Source: Parcubacteria group bacterium
Lineage (GTDB): Bacteria > Patescibacteriota > Minisyncoccia > Moranbacterales > UBA2206
Assembly: GCA_041659505.1 (NCBI GenBank)
Contig: JBAZYF010000001.1
Location: 321,719-385,718, forward strand
Direction of reading: 5' to 3'
Length of the DNA: 64,000 nucleotides
The notes under the pieces were generated by a model that worked only from the letters and a program-made list of their open reading frames with translations, searched no databases and was not told the origin of the DNA. Shown piece by piece: positions 5,101 to 64,000 of the stretch (the first letter of the stretch is position 1; every line of letters starts with the position of its first letter). The position numbers were made by a program, and so were the translations under genes.

Positions 5101-5271
5101 TAATTCTACAACAAATCATAGCTTTAGTAAAACAGGCTTTTTCACCAAAAAACCCGCGAATGAGCGGGGTGCTTTAAATTGCTTGGTAATAATTTAGTAA
5201 AACAAAGGTCGCCTTCGCGTACCTTCTGGCGGACTGCGTCACGCCGAAGGTCCGCTACGGCGAATCAATAG

Positions 5272-6714: not shown

Positions 6715-6879
6715 TCGCTCGAGTCAGCCGCATTTTCTAAAAAAATCTTGTCTGAGAATGCCTTTTTTCTTCAAAATTTTCCATTGGTTGCCGTCGATTG
6801 AGGGAAAATTTTGAAAAGAAAAAAGAGCGTTCGAGTTATTTTTTTAGAAAATACGGCTGTGAGGTGAAATGTATAAGTT
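6704..6879. repeat. Palindromic ~175-bp element, family B, copy 1 (abuts sigma-factor start)
   Basis: Near-identical to 35340-35517. Termini ACTTACGCATT...TTTTCTAAAAA / TTTTTAGAAAAT...ATAAGTT. Contains the internal palindrome TTCAAAATTTTCC / GGAAAATTTTGAA. Confidence 0.6.
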
Positions 6880-6937
6880 CTAAAAATATTAAGCTCCAGC
6901 AGAACTGGAGCTTAAATATAACTTGCCTCGTCAACGC

Positions 6938-7318: not shown

Positions 7319-7336
7319 ATAATTTTATTTGTTTAG

Positions 7337-7471
7337 GACTTACGCATTTGGCTGGGAAAAGTTCGCATGGTAATCTTTTTTAGCATCCTCAGGCTTTTGG
7401 TAAACCAGAGAGGGAAAACCAAGTTGCGGTAACCGTGCTTTCAGAATTTTTTCCAGGCAAATGCGTAAGTC
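7337..7471. repeat. Structured intergenic element, family A, copy 1
   Basis: Conserved ~75-nt core (TTTTTTAGCATCC.CAGG.CTTTTGGTAAACCAG..AGGGAAA.CCAA..TG.GG.AACCGTGCTTT.AGAAT) closed by a 25-bp inverted repeat (GACTTACGCATTTGGCTGGGAAAAG / TTTTTTCCAGGCAAATGCGTAAGTC). Confidence 0.6.
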
Positions 7472-7544
7472 CTATATTAGATTAATTAAGTTTATCGACC
7501 CTTCTAATATTAATACAATCTGAGATGCGTTTTTCTTTCACTTG

Positions 7545-10536: not shown

Positions 10537-10590
10537 ACTGTTAAATAATAGTTAATAACATTTAAGCTTTGCTCTTGGTTGCTAGTAGGG

Positions 10591-10722
10591 CTTACACAAT
10601 CGCCAAAAAGTTGTTCGCACGTTCAACTTTTTTAGCATCCCAGGGCTTTTGGTAAACCAGCAAGGGAAAGCCAAAATGAGGAAACCGTGCTTTTGAGAAT
10701 GACTTTTTGGCGATTGTGTAAG
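10591..10722. repeat. Structured intergenic element, family A, copy 2
   Basis: Same core as copy 1, but the closing inverted repeat has a different sequence (CTTACACAATCGCCAAAAAG / CTTTTTGGCGATTGTGTAAG) that still pairs. That is stem covariation. Confidence 0.6.
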
Positions 10723-16375: not shown

Positions 16376-17839
16376 TTAATTTATCTCTCTTATCCCCACC
16401 AACCGCATCTTCTCTCCTCCAGGAATCCTGCCGAGAACTACCACCACCTTATCCCCCGCCTCGATCTTTTTCTCGCTTTTCAACCTTTCAATCATCGTTT
16501 CGATAAGTTGCTCCTTGTCCACATTCTCCAGAAGGTAGCTTTCTACCCCCCAGACCATTGAAAGTTGATTATAGACCTTTTCGCTCATTGTGGCAACATA
16601 ATTGTTTTGCATCGGACGGAAATGAGAAATAAGCCTTCCCGTCAGCCCTGAAACCGTAATGGCGACAATAGCCTTAGCCTTTGAGTCTCTGGCTAGGTTA
16701 TAGGCGCTTTCGATAATGGCGACATAGTCCTGATCTTTGTCATCACTCGGCGTGGCGCACTGCAAATCATCAAAACGGGAATCTTCCGTGTCTGTTATGA
16801 TTTGGCTCATCGTCGCTACTGCTTTTTGGGGAAATTTTCCGTTGGCCGATTCACCCGAGAGCATCACGGCATCAGTGTGGTCAATGACGGCATTGGACAC
16901 ATCAGAAACTTCCGCCCGCGTCGGGATCGGATTTTGGATCATTGATTCGAGCATCTGCGTCGCCACAATCACCGGTCGCACCGCCTTGATGCATTTAGCG
17001 ATAATTTCTTTTTGATAGATGACCACTTTTGTCTCATCCATTTCAATCCCCAAATCTCCGCGCGCCACCATAATCACGTCAGTCGCGGAAATTATTTCAT
17101 CAATATTTTTGATCGCTTCTTTTCTTTCAATCTTAGCTACAATTTGTGGAAGATTGTCCTCACGTCCCAGAAGTTTACGCATTTTTTCCCGCGTCTCTTC
17201 GATTTCTTTTCCATTAGACACAAAAGACAAAGCAATAAAATCCACTTCTCGGCTCATTGCGTAAGCCAGATCCTCTTCATCCTTTTTGGTCACTGCGCCA
17301 ATTTTGAGCTTTGAATCAGGCACATTCACCCCCTTGTGATTTTTAATCACTCCGCCATTAATCACTTCTGCTACGAGTGATTTTCCATCTTTTTCAACTA
17401 CCACTAAGCGCTTTAGTCCATCCTCGATTAAAATATTTTCTCCAATATTTATATCATTAACAATCTCCGGCCAATCGAGCATTATTTTTTTATTGGAAAT
17501 TTGGTCATTTGATATTGATTTGAAATTGGAAATTTGAAATTTGAAATTATCCCCTACCGACACATCTGAAATCCAAATGCACTCTCCATTGTTAATTTCC
17601 ACATCCTCACTCACGACCGTTCGTATTCGTGGCCCTTGTAGATCAACCATAATTCCCACCGGCACACCCAACTCTTGAGAAAGTTCCCGCACCATCGTGA
17701 TCACCTTACCATTGGAGTCATAGGTTCCATGAGAAAAATTGATCCGGCAAACATTCAGGCCGGCCAAAATTAATTCTTTCAATACTTCTTTCGAATCAGA
17801 GGCTGGTCCGATTGTCGCTACTATCTTAGTTTTTTTCAT
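16376..17839 (-). CDS. pyk: Pyruvate kinase, carrying a low-complexity in-frame insertion
   Basis: MKKTKIVATIGPAS...NFSHG...GPRIRT...MVARGDLGIE are canonical pyruvate kinase blocks. There is an extra DNFKFQISNFKSISNDQISNKKIM segment encoded by a GGAAATT-type repeat. Confidence 0.85.
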   Translation of the reverse strand: MKKTKIVATIGPASDSKEVLKELILAGLNVCRINFSHGTYDSNGKVITMVRELSQELGVPVGIMVDLQGPRIRTVVSEDVEINNGECIWISDVSVGDNFKFQISNFKSISNDQISNKKIMLDWPEIVNDINIGENILIEDGLKRLVVVEKDGKSLVAEVINGGVIKNHKGVNVPDSKLKIGAVTKKDEEDLAYAMSREVDFIALSFVSNGKEIEETREKMRKLLGREDNLPQIVAKIERKEAIKNIDEIISATDVIMVARGDLGIEMDETKVVIYQKEIIAKCIKAVRPVIVATQMLESMIQNPIPTRAEVSDVSNAVIDHTDAVMLSGESANGKFPQKAVATMSQIITDTEDSRFDDLQCATPSDDKDQDYVAIIESAYNLARDSKAKAIVAITVSGLTGRLISHFRPMQNNYVATMSEKVYNQLSMVWGVESYLLENVDKEQLIETMIERLKSEKKIEAGDKVVVVLGRIPGGEKMRLVGIREIN

Positions 17840-18377: not shown

Positions 18378-18755
18378 TTAAGCGACGCCAGAAAGCTCCC
18401 GCAAAATTTCTTCTGGAATAGGATTCTTCTGCGGACTCACCCCCGGATACCGCCACGCACTAATAATTTTCAAAGGATTTTTTTCCAAAATTTTACATTT
18501 TGATTTTTGCATTTTACATTTTCTTTGGTACATCACCCAAACCTCATGCTTCCAAACTTCCTTGCCACTCACAATTTTTGGCGAAACTGGCTTCATGACA
18601 GCAATCGTCTTTTCCACAATCCCCTCCTCTTTTCTTTTGGGACTATTGATCACTCCCAAGATTTTTTGCTCGCTAAGGCCATAAAACCGCATCTTGAATT
18701 TCACGTGCTCGGTCCAACAGTAACGGCTGGTGTTTTTGGGGGATTTTGTAATCAT
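18378..18755 (-). CDS. Hypothetical protein (125 aa)
   Basis: ORF only; no recognisable motifs. Confidence 0.3.
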   Translation of the reverse strand: MITKSPKNTSRYCWTEHVKFKMRFYGLSEQKILGVINSPKRKEEGIVEKTIAVMKPVSPKIVSGKEVWKHEVWVMYQRKCKMQKSKCKILEKNPLKIISAWRYPGVSPQKNPIPEEILRELSGVA

Positions 18756-22903: not shown

Positions 22904-23105
22904 TGTCATTCCCGCGACCGCGTGCTGCCTTAGCTTTAGCGGTGGAGCAAGGCGGGAATCCAGGTTTCACTAGTTGTAAACTCTAGAAAATTAAGTTGCA
23001 AGTGTAATAAACTTTATATATCAGTCAGTCTTGAATTTTAATAATTCGCTTCTTCTCAACTTTTAGCCTGAGGTGCCTGGATTCCCGCCTTCGCGGGAAT
23101 GACAC
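22904..23105. repeat. Terminal-inverted-repeat element, family C, copy 1 (with a 30-nt insertion in the 5' hairpin)
   Basis: GTGTCATTCCCGCG...GCGGGAATCCAGG at the 5' end is the exact reverse complement of the 3' end CCTGGATTCCCGCCTTCGCGGGAATGACAC. The interior is conserved across the three copies. Confidence 0.65.
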
Positions 23106-23107
23106 GT

Positions 23108-23134
23108 AAAAAAAGAACCGCACGGTTCTTTTTT
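23108..23134. terminator. Bidirectional terminator between the convergent PAP2 and murE genes
   Basis: AAAAAAA-GAACCG-CA-CGGTTC-TTTTTT. Confidence 0.65.
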
Positions 23135-35339: not shown

Positions 35340-35517
35340 GACTTACGCATTTACCCGAGTCAACTGTATTTTCTAAAAAAACGTGTCTGAGAATGCCTTT
35401 TTTCTTCAAAATTTTCCACTGGTTGCCTTTGATAGAGGGAAAATTTTGAAAAGAAAAAAGAGCGTTCGAGTTATTTTTTTAGAAAATACGGTTGCGAGGT
35501 AAGACGCGTAAATCCTA
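35340..35517. repeat. Palindromic ~175-bp element, family B, copy 2 (abuts response-regulator start)
   Basis: About 90% identical to copy 1 over ~170 bp. Confidence 0.6.
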
Positions 35518-35532
35518 TTATTAATAAAAAAT

Positions 35533-39836: not shown

Positions 39837-40931
39837 TTAGCAAAAACTTTTCACTTTTTGAATAAATCGATAAAGCCAATACTTTACCGGATTTATGATA
39901 ATATCATAACTCCCAGGGAAAACCGTCGGCAAAGTTTTCGGCGCAAAGCCAAGTTTGAATTTCGTAATTCCACTCCAAGTATTTTTACCGTTCACTGTTT
40001 CCTGCTCGCCTGCCGAAGCCTTGGCGTAGGCAGGTTCGCTGTTAACTGTTTTTATCCCCCCGAAATCATACCTCATGCATCCCGCCTTTTTCGCGTCGCA
40101 AATTTGTCGCCACTGCAAAAGATAGGGCGCCATCACGTTGCGAAAATTATCATCCGATGCGCCGTGGAGATAGATACAAGTCTCGCCATAAAAAACAACT
40201 AGATTAGCCGCAATAATTTTTCCTTCATATTGGGCAACATACAATTTCAAGTTGTCCCCCGGAATAATTTCCAGCATCTGACGATAATAATTTTCCGGAT
40301 GCGCCACAATCCCCTGCCGCCTTGCCATCACCCCAGTCAACCTTAAAAACTCCTCGATGTATTTTTTTTCTTTAATTTGATCATTGGGATTTGAAAATTT
40401 ATTGGAAATTGGAAATTGGAAATTGGAAATTACTTTCACTAAAACATTATGTTTTTGTGAAAGTTTGATATTATACCGAGTTTTCGCCTTCATCTCCGCC
40501 AAAAGCTCTTCTTCGCTTTTCGCAATATCAATGACATATAGCTCTTTGGGCTGCATATCGTGTGGCGCCTTCGCTATTTTATAATTTATATTTTTTCTAA
40601 TCGCTTCCAGCAATTCTTCCGTCTCCGGATCAATCCGGATCCAACCCGCATTGTTTTCTTTTGCTAATTTTATCAGTTCTCCAAAATCGGAGCCAGGCTC
40701 CGGAGCTCCGGAGCCTGGCTCCGATTTTACCTCTGGTCCTCTCGGAACATAAAAATATTTCCCCACCACCGGAAGTTTATGAAAAATTATATTCGCCCAA
40801 AAATTTTCAGAAGAAAGATGAAAAGTTTTCCGCCCCACACTCTCTTGAAATTGACGCCACACCTCCGACTGCAAAAATTCTCCAAAAGGAGAATCGTTTT
40901 GCATAAAATTATTTTTAGCCAATGTTTCCAT
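39837..40931 (-). CDS. FemAB-family peptidoglycan bridge-forming (amino-acyl transferase) protein
   Basis: FemAB-type blocks (KTRYNIKLSQKHNV..., LYVAQYEGKIIAANLVVFYGETCIYLHGASDD, LQWRQICDAKKAGCMRYDFGGI). I moved the start to the ATG at 40931 (METLAKNN...), because the ORF-track N-terminal extension runs across a GC-rich repeat element. Confidence 0.6.
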   Translation of the reverse strand: METLAKNNFMQNDSPFGEFLQSEVWRQFQESVGRKTFHLSSENFWANIIFHKLPVVGKYFYVPRGPEVKSEPGSGAPEPGSDFGELIKLAKENNAGWIRIDPETEELLEAIRKNINYKIAKAPHDMQPKELYVIDIAKSEEELLAEMKAKTRYNIKLSQKHNVLVKVISNFQFPISNKFSNPNDQIKEKKYIEEFLRLTGVMARRQGIVAHPENYYRQMLEIIPGDNLKLYVAQYEGKIIAANLVVFYGETCIYLHGASDDNFRNVMAPYLLQWRQICDAKKAGCMRYDFGGIKTVNSEPAYAKASAGEQETVNGKNTWSGITKFKLGFAPKTLPTVFPGSYDIIINPVKYWLYRFIQKVKSFC

Positions 40932-42997: not shown

Positions 42998-43139
42998 CAC
43001 GCCATAGTCACAAGTACTCTTGGGACGAAGGCGGACTGAGTCACGCCATAGCTTAAGTAAAGGCGGACTGCGCCACGCCGTAGCCCAAGCGAAGGCGGAC
43101 TGCGCCACGCCGTAGCCCAAGCGAAGACGGGTATAGTCC
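42998..43139. repeat. Tandem array of 32-bp repeats (two identical and two or three degenerate units) upstream of a TrmB gene
   Basis: AGGCGGACTGCGCCACGCCGTAGCCCAAGCGA occurs twice, preceded by AGGCGGACTGAGTCACGCCATAGCTTAAGTAA. The motif GGCGGACTGCGYCA also occurs at 5231 and 12806. Confidence 0.7.
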
Positions 43140-44480: not shown

Positions 44481-47216
44481 ATGGAAACCCCCAAACCCGA
44501 AAAACTCATCCTTATCGACGGTAATGCTATCATCCATCGATCATACCACGCTCTCCCGCCGTTCACCACCAAAAATGGCGAGCTAGTGAATGCAGTTTAT
44601 GGATTTGCCTCAACTTTGCTTTCCATCATTGCCAAGTTCGAGCCGAAATATATCATAGCCACTTTTGATTTGGCCGGACCGACTTTTCGCCACATTGAAT
44701 ATGCGGAGTATAAGGCGACGCGCGCGAAAGCGGATGATGCGCTTTATGCGCAGATTCCTCGCGTCAAGGAAGTGACCGAGGCGTTTGGTATTCCGATTTA
44801 TGCTGTCGCCGGCTTTGAAGCGGATGATGTGATTGGAACACTCGCAAAACAAGCGAGGGAAAACTCTCGGGAGCTAGAGACTATTATCGTCACGGGCGAT
44901 ATGGACACATTGCAATTAGTCGATGATGTGACTTCGGTGTACACGATGCGCCGGGGACTGACTGACGCCGTGCTCTATGGCAAGGCGGAAATTTTTGAAC
45001 GCTTCTCACTGGCACCGGAACAGTTGATTGACTACAAAGGTCTGCGCGGAGATCCGTCAGATAATATTCCGGGCGTAAAAGGCATCGGCGAAAAAACCGC
45101 TATCGAACTTTTGAAGACTTACGGCACATTGGAAAATGTTTATGCCCATTTGGAAGACATCAAAAAACCACTGCGGGAGAAACTGGAGAAAGATAAAATG
45201 ATTGCGATTCAGAGCAAAGGACTGGCCACAATTTCCCGAGTTGTCCCGGTCACGCTAGATCTGGAAAAAGCGGTAACAAAAGATTTTGACAAAGAAAAAT
45301 TGGTCGCGCTTTTCACGGAACTTAATTTTCATAGTCTCAAAAAAAGACTATTGGGAAATACGACTGACAGCAAATCAAATAAAGCTGACCAGAAAAATGC
45401 TCCGACGGAAAAATCAGAAGGTATTAAAGATTTTAAATTTGAAATAGCTGACCAGAAAAATTTTCCAGAACTGCTCGCGAATCTAAAGGAGCAAAAAGAA
45501 CTGGCTATCAAGCTTAGAACTAATGGCGTCTCTGTGCACGCTAGCACGCTTTCTGGCATTGCCATTGGCTATAAGACTGGTCGCGCAATCTATTTCGATT
45601 TAGAGAATAAAGAAATTTTTTCGGAAATAAAAACACTCTTGGAAAATCCACAGACGGAAAAAATTTGTTTTGACTTGAAAAGTGATTGGGAGGTTTTGCA
45701 AAACGCCGGGGTAAATCTCGCCGGAAACTATTTCGATATTCTGCTTTCCAGCTATGTTCTTAGCCCGGGCCGGAAAATAACTTTGCCTGATCTCGTCGCG
45801 GAATTTTTACAAGAAGAAATGGCCGAAGAATCCAAAAAGGGCCAACTAGGCCTTGAGATTGAAAGTACCGAAGACATTGCCCAAAAAAATTGCGCCGTCG
45901 CCGACTATATTTTCAAACTGAAAAAAATCCAAAAAGAAGAAATCGAAAAAATCAGTGCGGAGCAAGTGAAATCTGGAAATTCTCCGGCGCACACGCTCAG
46001 TACGGTTTTTTGCGAACTGGAAATTCCCCTGGCTAAAGTTTTGGCACAAATGGAACTATCTGGCATCAAATTAGACACTATGATTTTTGCCGGCATTTCC
46101 GAAACGATCACGAAACGCATTGCGAAGCTCGAAGAAAATATCTATGCGCTTTCCGGCACAACTTTCAACATCGCCTCTCCCAAGCAACTCTCTGAGGTGC
46201 TGTTTGAAAAAATGCACTTGCCGGTCGGAAACATTAAAAAAGGTAAATTCGGCGTCATCTCAACGGCTTCGGCGGAACTGGAAAAATTGAAAGGTGAACA
46301 TAAGATCATTGAAAAAATCGAAGAATACCGCGAAATCACAAAACTGAAAAATACCTATCTCGACACCCTGCCAGAAATGGTCGACAAAAATTCCCGCCTC
46401 CATTCTACTTTCAACCAAGCCGTCACCGCCACCGGTCGCCTCTCATCCTCTGATCCCAATTTGCAAAACATTCCCACCCGCACCGATCTGGGACAACTTT
46501 TGCGCACGGCGTTTGTCGCTGAAACTGGTCACAAACTCGTCAGCGCCGATTATTCTCAAATTGATCTGCGCGTAGTCGCTCATGTTAGTAGTGACAAAAA
46601 AATGATCGAGCTGTTTCATAAAGACGAAGACATCCACCGTGCCACTGCGGCGGAAATCAACAACCTCACGCTCTCGCAAGTGACGGACAAAATCCGCCGC
46701 ACCGCCAAAGAGCTAAACTTTGGTGTGATTTATGGCATGGGCTCCTTCGGTTTTTCCGCCCGCGCCGGCATTTCACGCGATGATGCGAAAAGATTTATCG
46801 ATGCCTATTTTGAAAAATTCCAAGGGGTGGCGAAATATATGCAAGGGATTCGCGAATCCGCCAAAACCAACGGCTACGTCGAAACAGAAATCGGCCGCCG
46901 GAGATATATTCCAGAAATCAACTCATCCAATTTTCAGTTACAAAGCGCCGCCGAACGGATGGCGATCAATATGCCCATCCAAGGCCTCGCCTCAGACATC
47001 ATGAAAATCGCTATGCTCCACGTCACTAAAGAATTTGAAAATAATCCCGATGTCAAAATGCTTCTCCAAGTCCACGATGAAATTATTCTCGAAGTCAAAG
47101 AAGATCTGGCCGAAGAAGTAGCGCAAAAAATCAAAACGATTCTTGAAAAAGCCTACACTCTCAAAGTTCCACTCGTGGCGAACGTTGAGATTGGGGATAA
47201 TTGGGGAGAATTGTAG
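44481..47216 (+). CDS. polA: DNA polymerase I
   Basis: 5'-nuclease N-terminus (LILIDGNAIIHRSYHAL), polymerase motif A (DYSQIDLRV), motif B (RRTAKELNFGVIYG) and motif C (VHDEIILE). Confidence 0.9.
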   Translation: METPKPEKLILIDGNAIIHRSYHALPPFTTKNGELVNAVYGFASTLLSIIAKFEPKYIIATFDLAGPTFRHIEYAEYKATRAKADDALYAQIPRVKEVTEAFGIPIYAVAGFEADDVIGTLAKQARENSRELETIIVTGDMDTLQLVDDVTSVYTMRRGLTDAVLYGKAEIFERFSLAPEQLIDYKGLRGDPSDNIPGVKGIGEKTAIELLKTYGTLENVYAHLEDIKKPLREKLEKDKMIAIQSKGLATISRVVPVTLDLEKAVTKDFDKEKLVALFTELNFHSLKKRLLGNTTDSKSNKADQKNAPTEKSEGIKDFKFEIADQKNFPELLANLKEQKELAIKLRTNGVSVHASTLSGIAIGYKTGRAIYFDLENKEIFSEIKTLLENPQTEKICFDLKSDWEVLQNAGVNLAGNYFDILLSSYVLSPGRKITLPDLVAEFLQEEMAEESKKGQLGLEIESTEDIAQKNCAVADYIFKLKKIQKEEIEKISAEQVKSGNSPAHTLSTVFCELEIPLAKVLAQMELSGIKLDTMIFAGISETITKRIAKLEENIYALSGTTFNIASPKQLSEVLFEKMHLPVGNIKKGKFGVISTASAELEKLKGEHKIIEKIEEYREITKLKNTYLDTLPEMVDKNSRLHSTFNQAVTATGRLSSSDPNLQNIPTRTDLGQLLRTAFVAETGHKLVSADYSQIDLRVVAHVSSDKKMIELFHKDEDIHRATAAEINNLTLSQVTDKIRRTAKELNFGVIYGMGSFGFSARAGISRDDAKRFIDAYFEKFQGVAKYMQGIRESAKTNGYVETEIGRRRYIPEINSSNFQLQSAAERMAINMPIQGLASDIMKIAMLHVTKEFENNPDVKMLLQVHDEIILEVKEDLAEEVAQKIKTILEKAYTLKVPLVANVEIGDNWGEL

Positions 47217-47345
47217 AAATATAGTAGGTTAGCTTTTTTCACAACTCAAGAAAATAGCCAGGAAAATATTGCCCGAAGAAAAAATAATTGATATCATTCC
47301 AGCATCAATTGAAGAATTTCATAAATTGATCAACGGGATTAAAAA

Positions 47346-49019: not shown

Positions 49020-49321
49020 AGAGCTAAGAAAATTTGAAAATAATCCGGAAGTGGAAATCGGAAATAATTGAGGGGAATTGTAAAACTAGCTAACAACTAT
49101 TTTATTATGCTTCATTGTTATCAATATTGTTAATAATCATGAATCATTAAACACGAATTGCTTATCCCCTCTCCTTAACAAGGAGATTTTACCTTCAACG
49201 ACTTGGAGGGAAAAGGGTGAGGCGAATTTAACTTTACTAATTAAAAACATAGAAAAAAGGAGTTGCAATGATTGGCAACTCCTTTTGATTATACCTGCAG
49301 AAAAAATCTTTTCCCCCTTTC

Positions 49322-56691: not shown

Positions 56692-57633
56692 ATGCCAGAA
56701 CTGCCAGAAGTTGAGACAATTACAACAGATTTAAACCAAAAAGTCAAGGGATTGATTATTACAAAATTTTGGTCAGATTTTCCGTCGGCCATAAAAGGCA
56801 CGACGCTTTTGCAGTTTCAACGCGAGATGAAAAACAAAAAAATCCTTTCCGCCCAGCGGGTGGGGAAAAATATATTCCTCCATCTTTCTGGCGGGAAATC
56901 GCTGCATATTCATTTGCGGATGACGGGACATTTGCTTGTGAAATTAAATCCACCTCACCCTAGCCCTCTCCTTAGTAAGGAGAGGAGACAAAAATACAAA
57001 AAAAGCCCTTCTCCTTACCAAGGAGAAGGTGGCCGTAGGCCGGATGAGGTGGATTTTTTCAACGATAAGGTCAATCAATATATTCACCACATTTGGTATT
57101 TAAATAAAAACAAGACATTGGAATTTTCTGATTTGCGAAAGTTTGCAACGATGCGACTTCTGGAGACAAATAGTATTAAAAAATATTTGGCGGAAAAAAA
57201 GATTGGTATTGATGCGATGAGTGAACAGTTTACGCTGACAAAATTCAATGAACTGCTTGACGCTAAACCAAAAATGCTCATTGGCATCTTCCTCCTTGAT
57301 CAAAGTATCATTTCCGGCATTGGAAACATCTATCGCAGTGAGATTCTTTTTGCCTCCGGAGTTTTGCCAGAACGCAAAAATGAAAGTCTGGAAAAAGACG
57401 AGCGCAAAAAAATCTTTCTGGCCACAAAAAAAATCCTAAAACTGGCCATCAAAATGCGCGGAACATCCGACAGTGATTATCGCGACTCAGATGGTGCGCC
57501 GGGACATTTTCAAGAAATGCTAAAAGTCTATCGTCGAGATAAATTGCCATGTCCCGCAAAATGCGGCGGACTAATTTTGCGCAAAAAAATGGCACAAAGA
57601 AGTGTGTTCTTTTGTGCCAAATGCCAGAAATAA
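56692..57633 (+). CDS. mutM: Formamidopyrimidine-DNA glycosylase (Fpg/MutM), with an in-frame repeat-derived insertion
   Basis: MPELPEVETI N-terminus with catalytic P2/E3 and the C-terminal zinc finger CPAKCGG...FFCAKCQ. The ~35-aa segment NPPHPSPLLSKERRQKYKKSPSPYQGEGGRRPDEVDFF is encoded by the GC-rich double-hairpin repeat. Confidence 0.8.
   Translation: MPELPEVETITTDLNQKVKGLIITKFWSDFPSAIKGTTLLQFQREMKNKKILSAQRVGKNIFLHLSGGKSLHIHLRMTGHLLVKLNPPHPSPLLSKERRQKYKKSPSPYQGEGGRRPDEVDFFNDKVNQYIHHIWYLNKNKTLEFSDLRKFATMRLLETNSIKKYLAEKKIGIDAMSEQFTLTKFNELLDAKPKMLIGIFLLDQSIISGIGNIYRSEILFASGVLPERKNESLEKDERKKIFLATKKILKLAIKMRGTSDSDYRDSDGAPGHFQEMLKVYRRDKLPCPAKCGGLILRKKMAQRSVFFCAKCQK
57006..57049. repeat. GC-rich double-hairpin (REP-like) element inside the fpg coding sequence
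   Basis: CCCTTCTCCTTACCAAGGAGAAGGTGGCCGTAGGCCGGATGAGG. It is translated in frame as part of Fpg. Confidence 0.6.
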
Positions 57634-57646
57634 TCTAACTTTTTTT

Positions 57647-57817
57647 GTGTCATTCCCGCGAAGGCGGGAATCCAGGTTCCACTAGTTTTAAACTCTGAAA
57701 AATCGAGCCACAGGTCTGACAAGCTCTCGGTTTCAGAAAGTCTTGCATTTTAACAATTTGTTTTTACTTTATTTTTAACCTGAGGTGCCTGGATTCCCGC
57801 CTTCGCGGGAATGACAC
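57647..57817. repeat. Terminal-inverted-repeat element, family C, copy 2
   Basis: 171 bp with 30-bp perfect terminal inverted repeats, in a convergent intergenic region. Confidence 0.65.
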
Positions 57818-57867: not shown

Positions 57868-58086
57868 CTATTTTACAAATTTAAACCGCGGAACTTTTTT
57901 ACCATCAATCACAACTTCTTCCAGAAACGTTTTCTTCGGCCTAACCCAAAGAGCATTTTCGCCGAATTCTTTGCTAGCATAGAGAGCGCGATAGACAACC
58001 AATTCTTCCAACGTTTCGCTATGATGTGCCACGCCAAGCACTTCATAGTATTTGCCTTTATAGTGTTGATATTTTCCTAACTTCAT
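57868..58086 (-). CDS. DUF1653-family small protein
   Basis: YQHYKGKYYEVLGVAHHSETLEELVVYRALY matches the DUF1653 consensus. Confidence 0.6.
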   Translation of the reverse strand: MKLGKYQHYKGKYYEVLGVAHHSETLEELVVYRALYASKEFGENALWVRPKKTFLEEVVIDGKKVPRFKFVK

Positions 58087-58143
58087 GCTTTAAGAATTTA
58101 AAATTGATTGAAAATTGTGAATTGTGAATTGAAAATTTCACCT

Positions 58144-59967
58144 TTACCATCCTCCCCCACCACCGCCTCCTCCGCCACCGCCTGAACCGCCGCCACCGCC
58201 AGCACCTGAGCCGGAAGAAGTATTGGCGGCCATTGCCGAAGACAAGCTGTCGATCTGCGATGAAAAACTATCCGCGTCAAAGGATGCAAGACTGCTACCA
58301 ACAAACCAACCAGGGTGATAGGAATTGAAATAATCTTCGCCATAGATTTCTTTCATTTTCTTAATCCAGAGTTTCGTCATTCCAAACATAATCGCGTAGG
58401 GTAAAAGTTTTTCAAAAATATTTTCTTTCTCATAAAATTGGTCACGGTACTTTTCTGCCGTTTCCATGTAGAGCTTGAAACCTTGCGTTTTCCAAAAAAC
58501 TTCAGCCCCAGAAGATGTTCTTTTGGGCATCAAAAAGGCGAAAATAAAGAGAATAATCGTAGTGAAGATCATTGCCGGCAAACTCAGAAAGGAATAAGCC
58601 GCAAGGATAAATGTCAAAAACACAAAAGCAACACCTAAAATCAAAAAGGCGACTTGGAAACTCAAGCCAGCAACTTCGATAAACTTTTTCTCCTCCAAGT
58701 TTTTTATGGTTTCTTTTTTAATCTTCGATATGCTTTGGTAAAACTTATTGCGAAGCGACGAAAGCATCACTTCGTCTTTCCCTGAAAATACACCTTCGAT
58801 CAAAACTTGCTCCGGCTGGGAAAGTTCGGCTATTCTTGCCTGATCAATTATTTTCAATCGAAAATCTTTGCCGATATGCAAAAAATTCAAGGTCTTTTCT
58901 ATGAAACTTTTTTGCTTGTCTGAAAATTCAGAGACCACTTCCTTAGCGGGACCATCCGGCACAGAATCAAGTCCTTCGGTCTCCTCGATCTGGATAATTT
59001 TTTTGACTGCCAGATTGATGATTGCGGCGGTGATATATTCATTCTTTAATGTTCCATTGAAAAAAAGCGTCCCCAATTCCAATGGAGAAAGCTTTTCCGG
59101 CACATCAAACTCAGTGATGATTGTTTTGTCCATTCTGGGATCTTTGCCATATTTATTCCAAAGGCCGAAGCAAATTGCAAAAGCGACAAGCGGAATGATA
59201 AACCAAAGATAAAAAGCATACTTTTCAATAAACGTCGGGGCATAGGGCGTGAAAATATTTTTCGAGAAAGTGATTGAGGCCGTGATTCCTTCGCCAATAC
59301 CAAGCATGCCAGTTGACTGGAATTGCAAGATATTATCGCTGATCCAAGAATAATTGGCACCAGCCTGGCTTTTACTGCCAATACTGCCGGTATAATAATC
59401 CACTTTAGTATTATTTTTTGTGACTTCAGCAGGAAAAACTATTGTGCCAGTAAAGTTGTCTGTTTCAATGTCCCAAAAATTACCGTTCAAGTTCCAATAA
59501 AGCTCGTCAAAAGCAGGATTATCAAAAAGGATGGTATTTTTTATTTTATAGGTTATGAGATAATTATTCACTCCGGTCACGGTCCGATCAGGATCACCAA
59601 TCTTCCACGTCACCGTATTATTCGAATAGTTTTTTTGCGTGGAATATTGCAAGCTTTTTCCAGCAAAATCCGTGATACTCACAAGTTCGACCGGCATCGA
59701 GATTGTTTCGTCCGTCGTACGAAAAACAGTCGGCAAAGTGCGGAAAATTCCGTGTTTGCCGGAAGCCATCCCACAATCAGCTGTGATTCTCTCTGCGATG
59801 AGTAATGTTGAATCTTTGTTGACTAAAATTTCTGATTGAAAATCTTTGATATACCAATCAGTGACATTGGTCCGCGCAGTAACAGCAGCTCGCGCGTCGA
59901 CTCCAAAAAGCGAGAATGCCAATCCAGCTACAATCAAAACAAAAAAGTATTTTCTCATATAATTCAT
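58144..59967 (-). CDS. DUF2207-family membrane protein with a C-terminal poly-Gly tail
   Basis: Signal peptide, large extracytoplasmic N-domain, TM helices and a C-terminal run of glycines. Confidence 0.6.
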   Translation of the reverse strand: MNYMRKYFFVLIVAGLAFSLFGVDARAAVTARTNVTDWYIKDFQSEILVNKDSTLLIAERITADCGMASGKHGIFRTLPTVFRTTDETISMPVELVSITDFAGKSLQYSTQKNYSNNTVTWKIGDPDRTVTGVNNYLITYKIKNTILFDNPAFDELYWNLNGNFWDIETDNFTGTIVFPAEVTKNNTKVDYYTGSIGSKSQAGANYSWISDNILQFQSTGMLGIGEGITASITFSKNIFTPYAPTFIEKYAFYLWFIIPLVAFAICFGLWNKYGKDPRMDKTIITEFDVPEKLSPLELGTLFFNGTLKNEYITAAIINLAVKKIIQIEETEGLDSVPDGPAKEVVSEFSDKQKSFIEKTLNFLHIGKDFRLKIIDQARIAELSQPEQVLIEGVFSGKDEVMLSSLRNKFYQSISKIKKETIKNLEEKKFIEVAGLSFQVAFLILGVAFVFLTFILAAYSFLSLPAMIFTTIILFIFAFLMPKRTSSGAEVFWKTQGFKLYMETAEKYRDQFYEKENIFEKLLPYAIMFGMTKLWIKKMKEIYGEDYFNSYHPGWFVGSSLASFDADSFSSQIDSLSSAMAANTSSGSGAGGGGGSGGGGGGGGGGGW

Positions 59968-63583: not shown

Positions 63584-63638
63584 ATAAATTTATCCCTGCC
63601 ACTAAAGAAAACCTTGCTAAAAAAATGTCTAGCATTAG

Positions 63639-63810
63639 GTGTCATTCCCGCGGAGGCGGGAATCCAGGTTCCACTAATTATAAAAGTTTTAGAAAGTCGA
63701 GCTGCAAGTGCAATAAACTTTCTATTTAGGCAAGTCTTGAATTTTAATAATTCGTTTTTCTTTATTTTTAACTTGAGGTGACTGGATTCTCGCCTCCGCG
63801 GGAATGACAC
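63639..63810. repeat. Terminal-inverted-repeat element, family C, copy 3
   Basis: 172 bp with the same termini and conserved interior. Confidence 0.65.
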
Positions 63811-64000
63811 AATAAAAAAAACGGCAGTTTATAGACTTGCCGCAAGTCTTCGATGACGATAGAATCATTTAAAAAAAGATTCTACCGCCCTCAATGATCC
63901 CTCGAACCGCAGGAAGTATTGGTGGCAATAACCGCCACACGTCCCGCGACAATTCGGGGGCATGAAATAGTCGTAATAAATTCTATGCAACAGTACCTCC

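What the first reader, a model, noticed from the sequence alone, without database searches (positions are those of the whole stretch)
17495..17575. GAAATT-type microsatellite encoding similar ISNF...ISN peptides in frame in both pyruvate kinase and FemAB
Within pyk the DNA ...TTGGAAATTTGGTCATTTGATATTGATTTGAAATTGGAAATTTGAAATTTGAAATT... encodes DNFKFQISNFKSISNDQISNKKIM, an insertion relative to canonical pyruvate kinases between the VGD and ILxDDG blocks. FemAB contains the same DNA motif (TTGGAAATTGGAAATTGGAAATTGGAAATT, 40385-40435) encoding ISNFQFPISNKFSNPNDQI. Non-coding copies are at 58095-58140 and 49040-49080. Two unrelated enzymes carrying the same repeat-derived peptide suggests an expanding simple-sequence element that inserts in frame, or is selected to stay in frame.
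Basis: seen in the sequence. Interest (0 to 1): 0.5.

Follow-up and report, generated by a model that had tools for sequence, protein, structure and literature searches.

The report
In-frame seven-base repeats in essential enzymes
Two unrelated enzymes of this tiny candidate-phyla bacterium carry the same short run of a 7-base DNA repeat, translated as a floppy surface loop; such in-frame repeats turn out to be old, widespread in this bacterial group, and able to change length only three units at a time.

Summary
Pyruvate kinase (16376-17839, minus strand) and the FemAB-family transferase (39837-40904, minus strand) each hold a ~57-nt stop-free segment. It consists of ~4.4 copies of AATTTCC/AATTTCA followed by a degenerate tail with AATGAYCAAAT.

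The two segments align over 68 nt at 75% identity. A third array fills the intergenic spacer 58089-58138. The claimed copy at 49040-49080 is at chance level.

Orthologues only 52-62% identical (Candidatus Moranbacteria) carry the same peptide at the same sites, while some closer relatives lack it.

It belongs to a broad pattern:
- (AATTTCC)≥3 lies in frame in LeuRS, Pol I, MnmA, Mur ligase, Fmt, LepA and glycosyltransferases across many Patescibacteria lineages, in both orientations.
- In Moranbacteria-like DNA, perfect tandem arrays of at least 3 units exist almost only for period 7.
- Coding arrays cluster at 30-34 nt.
- Relatives differ by exactly 7 residues (three units).

Best explanation: slippage-prone heptanucleotide microsatellites sit in permissive, low-confidence loops and are quantised by the reading frame. 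They turn over slowly and have no demonstrated function. How they arise and spread is unresolved. I judge this a new variant of known kinds (bacterial heptamer repeats; in-frame Rickettsia-type elements).

The parts
16376..17839 (-). Host gene 1: pyruvate kinase, 487 aa, intact
   Evidence: ORF. It is 100% identical to P0001, named 'pyruvate kinase [Parcubacteria group bacterium]', with Pfam PF00224 + PF02887, on a 656-kb contig.
17492..17548 (-). In-frame heptamer element in pyk. Sense strand: AATTTCA AATTTCA AATTTCC AATTTCA, then the tail AATCAATATCAAATGACCAAATTTCCAAT. It encodes residues 98-116, NFKFQISNFKSISNDQISN.
   Evidence: In the AF2 model it is coil between strands 87-92 and 114-121 of the B domain; the 10-residue pLDDT blocks over 91-120 are 77, 60 and 80, against a mean of 87.5. 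It is absent from orthologues P0012-P0029.
39837..40904 (-). Host gene 2: FemA/FemB-family peptidoglycan bridge transferase, 355 aa from the ATG at 40904
   Evidence: (P0121, 100% identity; PF02388 + PF13480).
40374..40430 (-). In-frame heptamer element in FemAB. Sense strand: perfect (AATTTCC)x4 + AAT, then the tail AAATTTTCAAATCCCAATGATCAAATT. It encodes residues 159-177, ISNFQFPISNKFSNPNDQI.
   Evidence: (40401-40431, 4.4 copies, 100% matches). The AF2 pLDDT blocks are 51 for residues 161-170 and 68 for 171-180, with 165-170 below 50. The segment is absent from L003 and L002 FemAB.
58089..58138 (-). Intergenic array of the same class (units AATTTTC / AATTCAC). It fills the spacer between ORF 58144-59967 and ORF 57868-58086.
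   Evidence: nhmmer with a profile of the coding copies gives E = 5e-4. No promoter or terminator signal above chance.
18490..18522 (-). Another period-7 array with a different unit (AAAATGT type). It lies in frame inside ORF 18378-18755 and encodes KCKMQKSKCKI. Same class, different unit.
   Evidence: TRF: period 7, 4.7 copies, 76% matches. Translation. I did not check it against orthologues.

Best explanation
The pyk and FemAB segments are coding-region heptanucleotide microsatellites. Each has a core of ~4.4 units of AATTTCC-type repeat flanked by older, degenerate units, and each sits in a surface loop that tolerates extra residues.

Shown:
- AATTTCC has no stop codon in any of the six frames, and in all three sense frames it encodes the same cyclic heptapeptide, NFQFPIS. 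Such an array can therefore be translated wherever it lies.
- The arrays sit at fixed orthologous positions that are old (shared across Candidatus Moranbacteria) but are repeatedly lost, decayed or renewed.
- Period 7 is almost the only tandem period present in this DNA.
- Coding arrays are concentrated at 30-34 nt.
- Length differences between relatives come as 7 residues.

Inferred: the arrays arise and are kept homogeneous by replication slippage of 7-nt units. This repeat class is known to be over-represented in prokaryotes. Because 7 is not divisible by 3, selection on these essential genes passes only changes of three units (21 nt, 7 aa). That locks arrays at about 1.4, 4.4 or 7.4 units. 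Point mutation, largely loss of C, then erodes them into lineage-specific Asn/Lys/Ile/Ser-rich linkers.

The peptide is most likely a passenger, a tolerated disordered loop with no catalytic role.

Not resolved: how a new array is first seeded in a gene, and why the same composite (array plus an AATGAYMAAA tail 15 nt downstream) recurs in different genes. Microhomology-templated copying from an existing array is a plausible route that I did not test.
For: Host and age:
- Pyk orthologues at 55-62% identity share the insert at the same site; a clade at 80-86% identity lacks it.
- FemAB shows the same pattern.

Presence or absence elsewhere:
- L001 carries the element in Mur ligase, where the window, L002 and L003 show a clean gap.
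- The window carries the FemAB copy; L003 and L002 do not.

Breadth:
Most hits are Patescibacteria of many lineages.
- 86 of 123 matches lie in long ORFs, 68 sense and 18 antisense.
- Pfam confirms seven hosts: two LeuRS, MnmA, Mur ligase, GT1, Fmt and LepA.
- LeuRS has the array at one site in both orientations (L019/L051/L099 versus L121).

Period-7 specificity:
- In 153 kb of Moranbacteria-like DNA there are 7 perfect arrays of at least 3 units at period 7, with a shuffle mean of 0.00. There are none at periods 5, 6 and 8-12.
- In the enlarged 181-kb set the density is 50 per Mb, against 6 per Mb in 830 kb of other pyk loci (Fisher p = 1.6e-4).

Frame quantisation:
- 67 of 100 coding arrays are 30-34 nt, against 10 of 48 non-coding arrays (p = 1.8e-7).
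- P0039 and P0048, 90% identical pyks, differ by exactly 7 aa inside the array. FemAB P0227 lacks exactly 7 aa.
- Pyk loop lengths peak at 10-11, 14-15 and 27-30, with a small group at 20-22.

Different units at the same loop:
- Pyk loop: AATTTCC (L002) versus TCTCAAA (L126).
- FemAB loop 1: AAAGTCG (L002) versus AAGTTCA (L213) versus the ISNFQFPISN peptide in P0277.

Decay: L124 reads FKFEILNFK through C-to-A/G/T changes.

Tolerated loops: the inserts are low-pLDDT coil in otherwise confident AF2 models.

No RNA structure or regulatory signal: the inserts fold less well than their shuffles, and promoter and terminator scans are at chance. Rfam finds only tRNAs in the window.
Against: - Birth of a 4-unit array inside an essential gene cannot proceed by single-unit slippage without frameshifted intermediates.
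- The tail motif AATGAY[CA]AAA occurs within 60 nt 3' of the array in 8 of 123 loci, against 0.18 expected, and never 5'. In 5 cases it is exactly 15 nt away. This looks like a copied composite rather than independent microsatellites.
- The sense:antisense bias of 68:18 (p = 5e-8) is not explained by stop codons.
- The insert stays recognisable at divergences where synonymous sites are saturated. Nucleotide identity between orthologous inserts is 0.86-0.93, against 0.60-0.69 for the rest of the gene. Same-codon use exceeds a codon-bias control in 2 of 7 pairs (p = 0.003 and 0.006). Some constraint or homogenisation at the DNA level is therefore possible.
- The 120 loci were chosen by the repeat itself, and ORF calling there was heuristic.
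Confidence: 0.6

Rival explanations
1. A very small mobile element that is not a palindrome. A composite of about 57 nt (heptamer core plus an AATGAYCAAAT tail) is copied into new sites by an unknown recombinase, a template-switch process or a retro-process. Copies survive only where they land in frame in permissive loops. This would resemble Rickettsia palindromic elements or the cyanobacterial small dispersed repeats.
For: - The same composite occurs in unrelated genes: pyk, FemAB, Mur ligase, GT1 and LeuRS.
- The tail shows a polar association with the array, 8 of 123 against 0.18 expected.
- There are filled and empty orthologous sites.
- Both orientations occur at one LeuRS site.
- The increment over the shortest loop form is about +19 aa in both pyk and FemAB.
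- The empty FemAB site in L002 reads ATTATTTCGCAA, a possible microhomology to ATTTCCAA.
Against: - There are no terminal inverted repeats and no hairpin; the inserts fold worse than shuffles.
- No target-site duplication is visible at the Mur ligase or FemAB junctions.
- Arrays with unrelated units have the same length and occupy the same loops.
- The tails are locus-specific and are inherited with the host gene: a pyk type and a FemAB type.
- Only 3 copies lie in 64 kb.
- No associated gene was found.
Confidence: 0.2
2. The DNA or RNA sequence itself is functional. Possibilities are a binding site for an abundant protein, a strand-specific signal, or a weak two-tetrad G-quadruplex formed by (GGAAATT)4 on the antisense strand. 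On this view it is kept by selection on nucleotides, and translation is incidental.
For: - Nucleotide identity in the insert is well above that of the rest of pyk. Same-codon use is in excess in L002-L015 and window-L015 after a codon-bias control.
- There is a strong orientation bias.
- Copies also lie between genes.
- G-rich heptamer repeats of similar form (GGGAATC, GGGGAYT) are enriched in Xanthomonas and Nostoc and were examined as quadruplex formers (PMC4692102).
Against: - The unit sequence is not conserved at orthologous sites: AATTTCC versus TCTCAAA versus a decayed form.
- Close relatives do without the insert.
- 5 of 7 pairs show no synonymous excess.
- Promoter, terminator and structure signals are at chance, and Rfam finds nothing there.
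Confidence: 0.1
3. The peptide is a selected protein module: a shared loop motif, NFQFPISN...SNDQ, with a structural or interaction role in these enzymes.
For: - It has been retained at the same site across 40-45% protein divergence.
- There is a bias towards the NFQFPIS reading over GNWKLEI.
Against: - The insert is less conserved than the protein average: mean pairwise identity 0.49 against 0.62, and 80% of 19-column windows are at least as conserved.
- Radical replacements are tolerated (P to E, S to L).
- Whole-heptapeptide deletions and complete absence occur in close relatives.
- Other junk is nested in it, namely GC-rich hairpins.
- It is low-pLDDT coil.
- It also occurs in a prepilin-like N-terminus (L034) and in intergenic DNA.
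Confidence: 0.07
4. A phase-variation (contingency) switch. Slippage of the 7-nt unit would turn pyk or FemAB on and off by frameshift.
For: The unit length is not a multiple of three, and the FemAB array is perfect.
Against: - There are only about 4 units.
- The hosts are housekeeping genes.
- All database orthologues are in frame.
- Near relatives of the window's pyk have identical loop length.
- The length differences seen are 3-unit steps.
Confidence: 0.03

Closest known systems
Over-represented heptanucleotide simple-sequence repeats of prokaryotes. Examples: Calothrix/Nostoc tandem heptamers (STRR; GGGGAYT) and Xanthomonas GGGAATC. The general excess of 7-nt SSRs is attributed to polymerase slippage.
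   Same: - Tandem 7-nt units.
- A strong excess of period 7 over neighbouring periods.
- A G-run + A + T style unit (GGAAATT) that resembles GGGAATC and GGGGATT.
- Variation in length and sequence between relatives.
- Function unknown.
The literature statements come from PMC4692102, which cites the 2007 survey. The STRR unit sequences TGACCAA and CCCCART are from my memory.
   Different: - The known cases are reported mainly from intergenic regions of large genomes and can be long (e.g. a 26-unit array in Nostoc).
- Here most copies lie inside essential genes of small Patescibacteria genomes.
- They are translated.
- They are held near 4.4 units.
Rickettsia palindromic elements (RPE)
   Same: - A repeat family found in frame inside unrelated housekeeping or metabolic genes.
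- It encodes a conserved peptide.
- It is compatible with the host protein fold (PMC10969869).
   Different: - RPEs are about 150 bp and palindromic, and belong to MITE-like families.
- The present element is about 57 nt and made of direct repeats.
- It has no hairpin.
- It has no terminal inverted repeats and no visible target duplication.
Small dispersed repeats of Nostoc (Elhai et al. 2008, Genome Res 18:1484). The reference's existence was confirmed. The paper is not held, so its content is from my memory.
   Same: - Elements well under 100 nt.
- They appear or disappear between orthologous sequences.
- They nest within other repeats.
- Here, 17-30-nt GC-rich hairpins are nested inside the pyk heptamer array in L212 and L213.
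   Different: - A different phylum and different sequences.
- The nested hairpins, not the heptamer array, are the closer analogue.
Phase-variable contingency loci (SSRs in Haemophilus, Neisseria and Helicobacter genes)
   Same: A short tandem repeat inside a coding sequence, with a unit length that is not a multiple of three.
   Different: - No single-unit variation is seen.
- The arrays are short.
- The hosts are housekeeping genes.
- Selection appears to suppress switching rather than exploit it.
Asn-rich low-complexity inserts in proteins of AT-rich eukaryotes such as Plasmodium and Dictyostelium (from my general knowledge)
   Same: Lineage-specific, fast-evolving, disordered, Asn/Lys/Ile-rich loops inserted in conserved enzymes. 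Their origin is ascribed to slippage plus base-composition bias.
   Different: - Those are mostly trinucleotide or homopolymer codon runs.
- Here the generator is a 7-nt unit that yields a 7-residue period.
- The genome is only moderately AT-rich, about 41% G+C.

Membership tests
Prokaryotic heptanucleotide SSR | Head-to-tail copies of a 7-nt unit, three or more | tested here: met
   TRF finds 17518-17548 (4.4 copies, 91% matches), 40401-40431 (4.4 copies, 100%) and 58107-58137 (4.4 copies, 83%).
Prokaryotic heptanucleotide SSR | Excess over chance and over other unit lengths | tested here: met
   Seven perfect arrays of at least 3 units at period 7 against a shuffle mean of 0.00, and none at periods 5, 6 and 8-12, in 153 kb. 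In about 1 Mb there are 151 arrays of at least 17 nt at period 7, against 18 at period 6 and 17 at period 8.
Prokaryotic heptanucleotide SSR | Copy-number differences between relatives in whole units | tested here: met
   Differences come only in three-unit steps. P0039 and P0048 differ by exactly 7 aa, as does P0227 from P0168 and P0163.
Prokaryotic heptanucleotide SSR | Predominantly intergenic location, as in the described Xanthomonas and Nostoc cases | tested here: not met
   Two of the 3 AATTTCC-type window copies are coding (3 of 4 period-7 arrays counting 18490-18522), and 86 of 123 database matches lie in long ORFs.
Rickettsia palindromic element / MITE | Palindromic body or terminal inverted repeats | tested here: not met
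   The elements fold less well than shuffles (z = +1.3 to +2.0). The repeat finder reports no inverted arms at the elements.
Rickettsia palindromic element / MITE | Target-site duplication at filled versus empty sites | tested here: inconclusive
   None is visible at the Mur ligase junction (L001 versus window/L003) or the FemAB junction (window versus L003/L002). The flanks are too diverged to place the junctions exactly.
Rickettsia palindromic element / MITE | In-frame copies encoding a conserved peptide in unrelated genes | tested here: met
   Copies occur in pyk, FemAB, Mur ligase, GT1, LeuRS, MnmA, Fmt and LepA.
Rickettsia palindromic element / MITE | Size of about 100-150 bp | tested here: not met
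   The element is about 57 nt.
Phase-variable contingency locus | Frameshifting copy-number variants among close relatives or within a population | tested here: not met
   P0001-P0009 (90-100% identical) have an identical loop length, and every orthologue retrieved is in frame. Read-level population data were not available.
Known structured RNA family | Match to an Rfam covariance model | tested here: not met
   Only five tRNAs reach the gathering threshold in the window.

The most novel reading that the evidence does not exclude
Patescibacteria may possess a dedicated, strand-biased process that writes or copies arrays of about 31 nt of a 7-nt unit. The writing would occur at a fixed distance (15 nt) from an AATGAYMAAA-like site and would disperse the arrays through the genome. 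That would be a new kind of micro-element or templated-insertion mechanism, one that remodels loops of essential proteins. It could explain the recurrent composite, the 68:18 orientation bias, and the same array length with different units at the same loop.
Probability: 0.12. Interest if true: 0.8.

Novelty: new variant of a known kind. Interest (0 to 1): 0.55.

Why it matters
If the pattern holds genome-wide, several consequences follow.

- Many 'lineage-specific insertions' in candidate-phyla (CPR) housekeeping proteins would be by-products of one mutational process, not adaptations. That matters for annotation, for alignment-based phylogeny of these deep lineages, and for structure prediction.
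- It gives a clean natural example of how the reading frame filters a repeat that is not a multiple of three. Only three-unit steps survive, and the result is a 7-residue peptide period.
- It marks permissive loops in essential enzymes. The three low-confidence loops of this FemAB are exactly its three repeat-derived inserts.
- Full-text searches of the held paper library found no description of it for Patescibacteria.

Tried and rejected
- A protein search with the bare peptide failed. A 45-aa doubled peptide found only 3 word-sharing candidates and no hit, which cost one of three searches.
Only three useful Moranbacteria-like loci came back (L124-L126).
- My first impression was that the insert is more conserved than the host protein. 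Across 51 orthologues it is not: 0.49 against 0.62.
- The synonymous-site conservation I first measured (0.80-0.94 against about 0.45) shrank after an amino-acid-specific codon-bias control. It is significant in only 2 of 7 pairs.
- Long runs free of C or G are not specific enough to find decayed copies.
- VEIGDNWGEL at 47184-47232 looked like an antisense copy. It is the native C-terminus of DNA polymerase I, so I rejected it.
- A phage origin is unlikely. There are only 8 exact matches in 2.9 million viral contigs, mostly outside long ORFs.
- Promoter, terminator and RNA-structure roles are at chance.
- Rfam finds nothing at the elements.
- The Elhai 2008 paper could not be read because it is not held.
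Full report
**1. What is there**

The window comes from a Candidatus Moranbacteria / Parcubacteria-group genome. Its pyruvate kinase is 100% identical to a protein on a 656-kb contig, and the nearest relatives are named Moranbacteria or Moraniibacteriota. G+C is about 41%.

The pyk gene is 16376-17839 on the minus strand. Residues 98-116, NFKFQISNFKSISNDQISN, are encoded by 17492-17548. On the sense strand this reads AATTTCA AATTTCA AATTTCC AATTTCA, followed by AATCAATATCAAATGACCAAATTTCCAAT.

The FemA/FemB-family gene (39837-40904, minus; Pfam FemAB) encodes ISNFQFPISNKFSNPNDQI at 40374-40430. This is a perfect (AATTTCC)x4 followed by AATAAATTTTCAAATCCCAATGATCAAATT.

The repeat finder pairs the two regions over 68 ungapped nucleotides at 75% identity. 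A period-7 scan finds just three AATTTCC-type arrays in 64 kb. The third fills the spacer between two minus-strand genes at 58089-58138.

**2. The inserts are not recent**

In an alignment of the 120 best pyk relatives, proteins only 55-62% identical carry PNFQFPISNFQ[ST]ISNDQISND at exactly this site. A clade at 80-86% identity (474 aa) has a short loop, and other relatives have the shortest form, KKTTEEKELV.

FemAB behaves the same way. ISNFQFPISN[QEK]I[QP]N[SP]ND[QK] is present at the same site in many orthologues at 52-64% identity. It is absent from others, including L003, the closest available relative by pyk (92%).

Gain or loss still goes on. L001 lacks the pyk insert but has the element (FPNFQFPISNFQINSNDKISNA) in its Mur ligase, where the window, L002 and L003 have a clean gap.

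**3. It is one case of a wide pattern**

An exact search for (AATTTCC)x3+AAT in one genome per species stopped at its 120-locus limit. Most hits are Patescibacteria of many lineages: Moran-, Falkow-, Woese-, Doudna-, Yanofsky-, Kuenen- and Saccharibacteria, Microgenomates and others. A minority are Nitrospira, Bacteroidales, Planctomycetes and cyanobacteria, where the arrays look intergenic.

In my ORF analysis, 86 of 123 matches lie inside long ORFs. Of these, 68 read as NFQFPIS and 18 read on the other strand as GNWKLEI.

Pfam confirms seven hosts: two LeuRS, MnmA, Mur ligase, a GT1 glycosyltransferase, Fmt and LepA. A Pol I host (L062) rests on reading the translation only.

Several observations point to a small set of permissive loops:
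- The same loop is hit in different lineages. The Mur ligase site of L001 recurs in L016.
- Several LeuRS loops are hit, one of them in both orientations.
- Three FemAB loops are hit.
- In other lineages these loops hold different small repeats, such as MITE-derived VIPAKAGIQ... pieces.

**4. Why heptamers, and why about 31 nt**

The unit AATTTCC has no stop codon in any of six frames. Because 7 and 3 are coprime, all three sense frames give the same cyclic peptide, NFQFPIS. This follows directly from the sequence.

In 153 kb of Moranbacteria-like DNA, perfect tandem arrays of at least three units exist only for period 7: seven arrays against a shuffle mean of 0.00, and none for periods 5, 6 and 8-12. 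The units differ (AATTTCC, AAAGTCG, TTCGAAA, TCTCAAA, AAATCAA), yet six of the seven arrays are 30-33 nt long.

In an enlarged 181-kb set the density is about 50 arrays per Mb, against 6 per Mb in 830 kb of other pyk loci.

Across about 1.4 Mb of held low-G+C sequence, 67 of 100 coding arrays are 30-34 nt, one is 28-29 nt, and five are longer than 34 nt. Only 10 of 48 non-coding arrays fall in the 30-34 class (p = 1.8e-7).

Relatives differ by whole heptapeptides:
- Two pyks that are 90% identical differ by exactly 7 residues inside the array.
- One FemAB lacks exactly 7 residues.
- Pyk loop lengths peak at 10-11, 14-15 and 27-30 residues, with a small group at 20-22.

This is what reading-frame selection should do to a 7-nt microsatellite. 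Only three-unit (21-nt) changes survive, so arrays sit at about 1.4, 4.4 or 7.4 units.

An excess of heptameric repeats in bacteria has been reported before, and polymerase slippage has been proposed as the cause (PMC4692102).

**5. Passenger or function?**

AlphaFold models built on the orthologue alignments are confident (mean pLDDT 87.5 for both). The exceptions are the inserts:
- In pyk, the insert is coil between two B-domain strands, with 10-residue pLDDT blocks of 77, 60 and 80 over residues 91-120.
- In FemAB, the only three low-confidence segments (61-70, 161-180, 289-306) coincide with its three lineage-variable inserts.

Across 51 insert-bearing pyks the insert is less conserved than the protein average, 0.49 against 0.62. 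It also tolerates P-to-E and S-to-L changes.

As RNA the segments are less structured than shuffled controls. Promoter and terminator scans are at chance, and Rfam finds nothing.

Against pure neutrality:
- Orthologous inserts keep 86-93% nucleotide identity where the rest of the gene is at 60-69%.
- After correcting for codon bias, the same-codon excess is significant in only two of seven pairs.
- Different units occupy the same orthologous loop. This implies either homogenisation within arrays or repeated rebirth.

**6. What remains open**

- Single-unit slippage cannot create a four-unit array in an essential gene without frameshifted intermediates.
- The tail motif AATGAY[CA]AAA lies within 60 nt downstream of the array in 8 of 123 loci (0.18 expected), never upstream, and in five cases exactly 15 nt away. 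The same composite therefore recurs in pyk, FemAB, Mur ligase, GT1 and LeuRS.
- The 68:18 orientation bias (p = 5e-8) is unexplained.

These points keep alive a copy-and-paste micro-element model, though no inverted repeats, target duplications or associated genes were seen.

**7. Comparison with known systems, and verdict**

The element behaves like the heptanucleotide SSRs of Nostoc, Calothrix and Xanthomonas in period, excess and unit style. It differs in being mostly coding and length-locked.

It resembles Rickettsia palindromic elements in being translated in frame within unrelated housekeeping genes (PMC10969869). It fails their defining palindromic structure and their size.

It is not a contingency locus.

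Full-text searches found no description of this in Patescibacteria.

I file it as a new variant of known kinds. Interest is moderate.

Noticed in passing
window 40683-40728 (inside FemAB): A perfect 46-nt palindrome (AAAATCGGAGCCAGGCTCCGGAG / CTCCGGAGCCTGGCTCCGATTTT) lies in frame and encodes EPGSGAPEPGS. It is absent from the L003 orthologue and is a low-pLDDT loop (block 61-70 = 53). In other lineages the same loop holds heptamer arrays (L002 AAAGTCG, L213 AAGTTCA, P0277 ISNFQFPISN).
   Followed up: partly
window 22935-23112, 57640-57817, 63635-63817: Three copies of a MITE-like element of about 175 nt, with 46-nt terminal inverted repeats (GTGTCATTCCCGCGAAGGCGGGAATCCAGG...). Read in frame, the repeat gives the VIPAKAGIQ / AGMT peptides that appear inside the FemAB loop of other lineages (P0188, P0240).
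   Followed up: partly
window 56692-57633 (+), Fpg/MutM-like ORF, roughly residues 86-120: An in-frame GC-rich insert, NPPHPSPLLSKERRQKYKKSPSPYQGEGGRRPDEV. Nearly the same peptide sits in the C-terminal loop of the L003 FemAB (NPPHPNPLLTKERGQNAGKSPSPYQGEGGRRPDE). This is a second repeat family translated inside housekeeping genes.
   Followed up: no
window 18490-18522 inside ORF 18378-18755 (-): A period-7 array with a different unit (AAAATGT type; 4.7 copies, 76% matches), translated as KCKMQKSKCKI. Similar KCKVQSAK pieces occur in a LeuRS loop of L121.
   Followed up: no
L212 (pyk P0010) and L213 (pyk P0041), inside the heptamer array: Small GC-rich hairpins are nested within the pyk array: CCTGCCGGTAGGCAAGG (LPAGRQG, +7 aa) in L212, and CCCTCCGGAGG + TCTCCCGAAGGGAGA (SPSGGSPEGR) in L213. 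Similar nested pieces occur in many pyk and FemAB orthologues (P0033, P0034, P0050, P0077, P0127, P0172, P0173).
   Followed up: partly
window 43026-43130: A 32-nt tandem repeat of 3.2 copies (AAGGCGGACTGCGCCACGCCGTAGCCCAAGCA), with a related 40-nt piece at 5210-5249 near a tRNA cluster. Its nature is unknown.
   Followed up: no
window 6740-6892 and 35375-35527; 7334-7474 and 10586-10722: Two further dispersed repeat families: a 153-nt pair at 88% identity, and a pair of about 140 nt with 29-31-nt inverted termini (MITE-like). The window is unusually rich in small repeats for a genome of this size.
   Followed up: no
L002 5138-5168 (Mur ligase): A perfect (TTCGAAA)x4.4 array replaces native sequence with no change in length (GINFSKFEIRNSKFTLN against GIDGSEFEIDRHKFKIN in relatives). 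An array can apparently form in place over a quasi-periodic native stretch.
   Followed up: partly
L034 about 1911-1937 (Candidatus Colwellbacteria): The AATTTCC array lies near the N-terminus of what looks, by its sequence, like a type IV prepilin (MKKNPISNFQFPIKSQGFTLMELLV). It would then be upstream of the usual G/F cleavage site and so removed from the mature protein. I did not test the family assignment.
   Followed up: no
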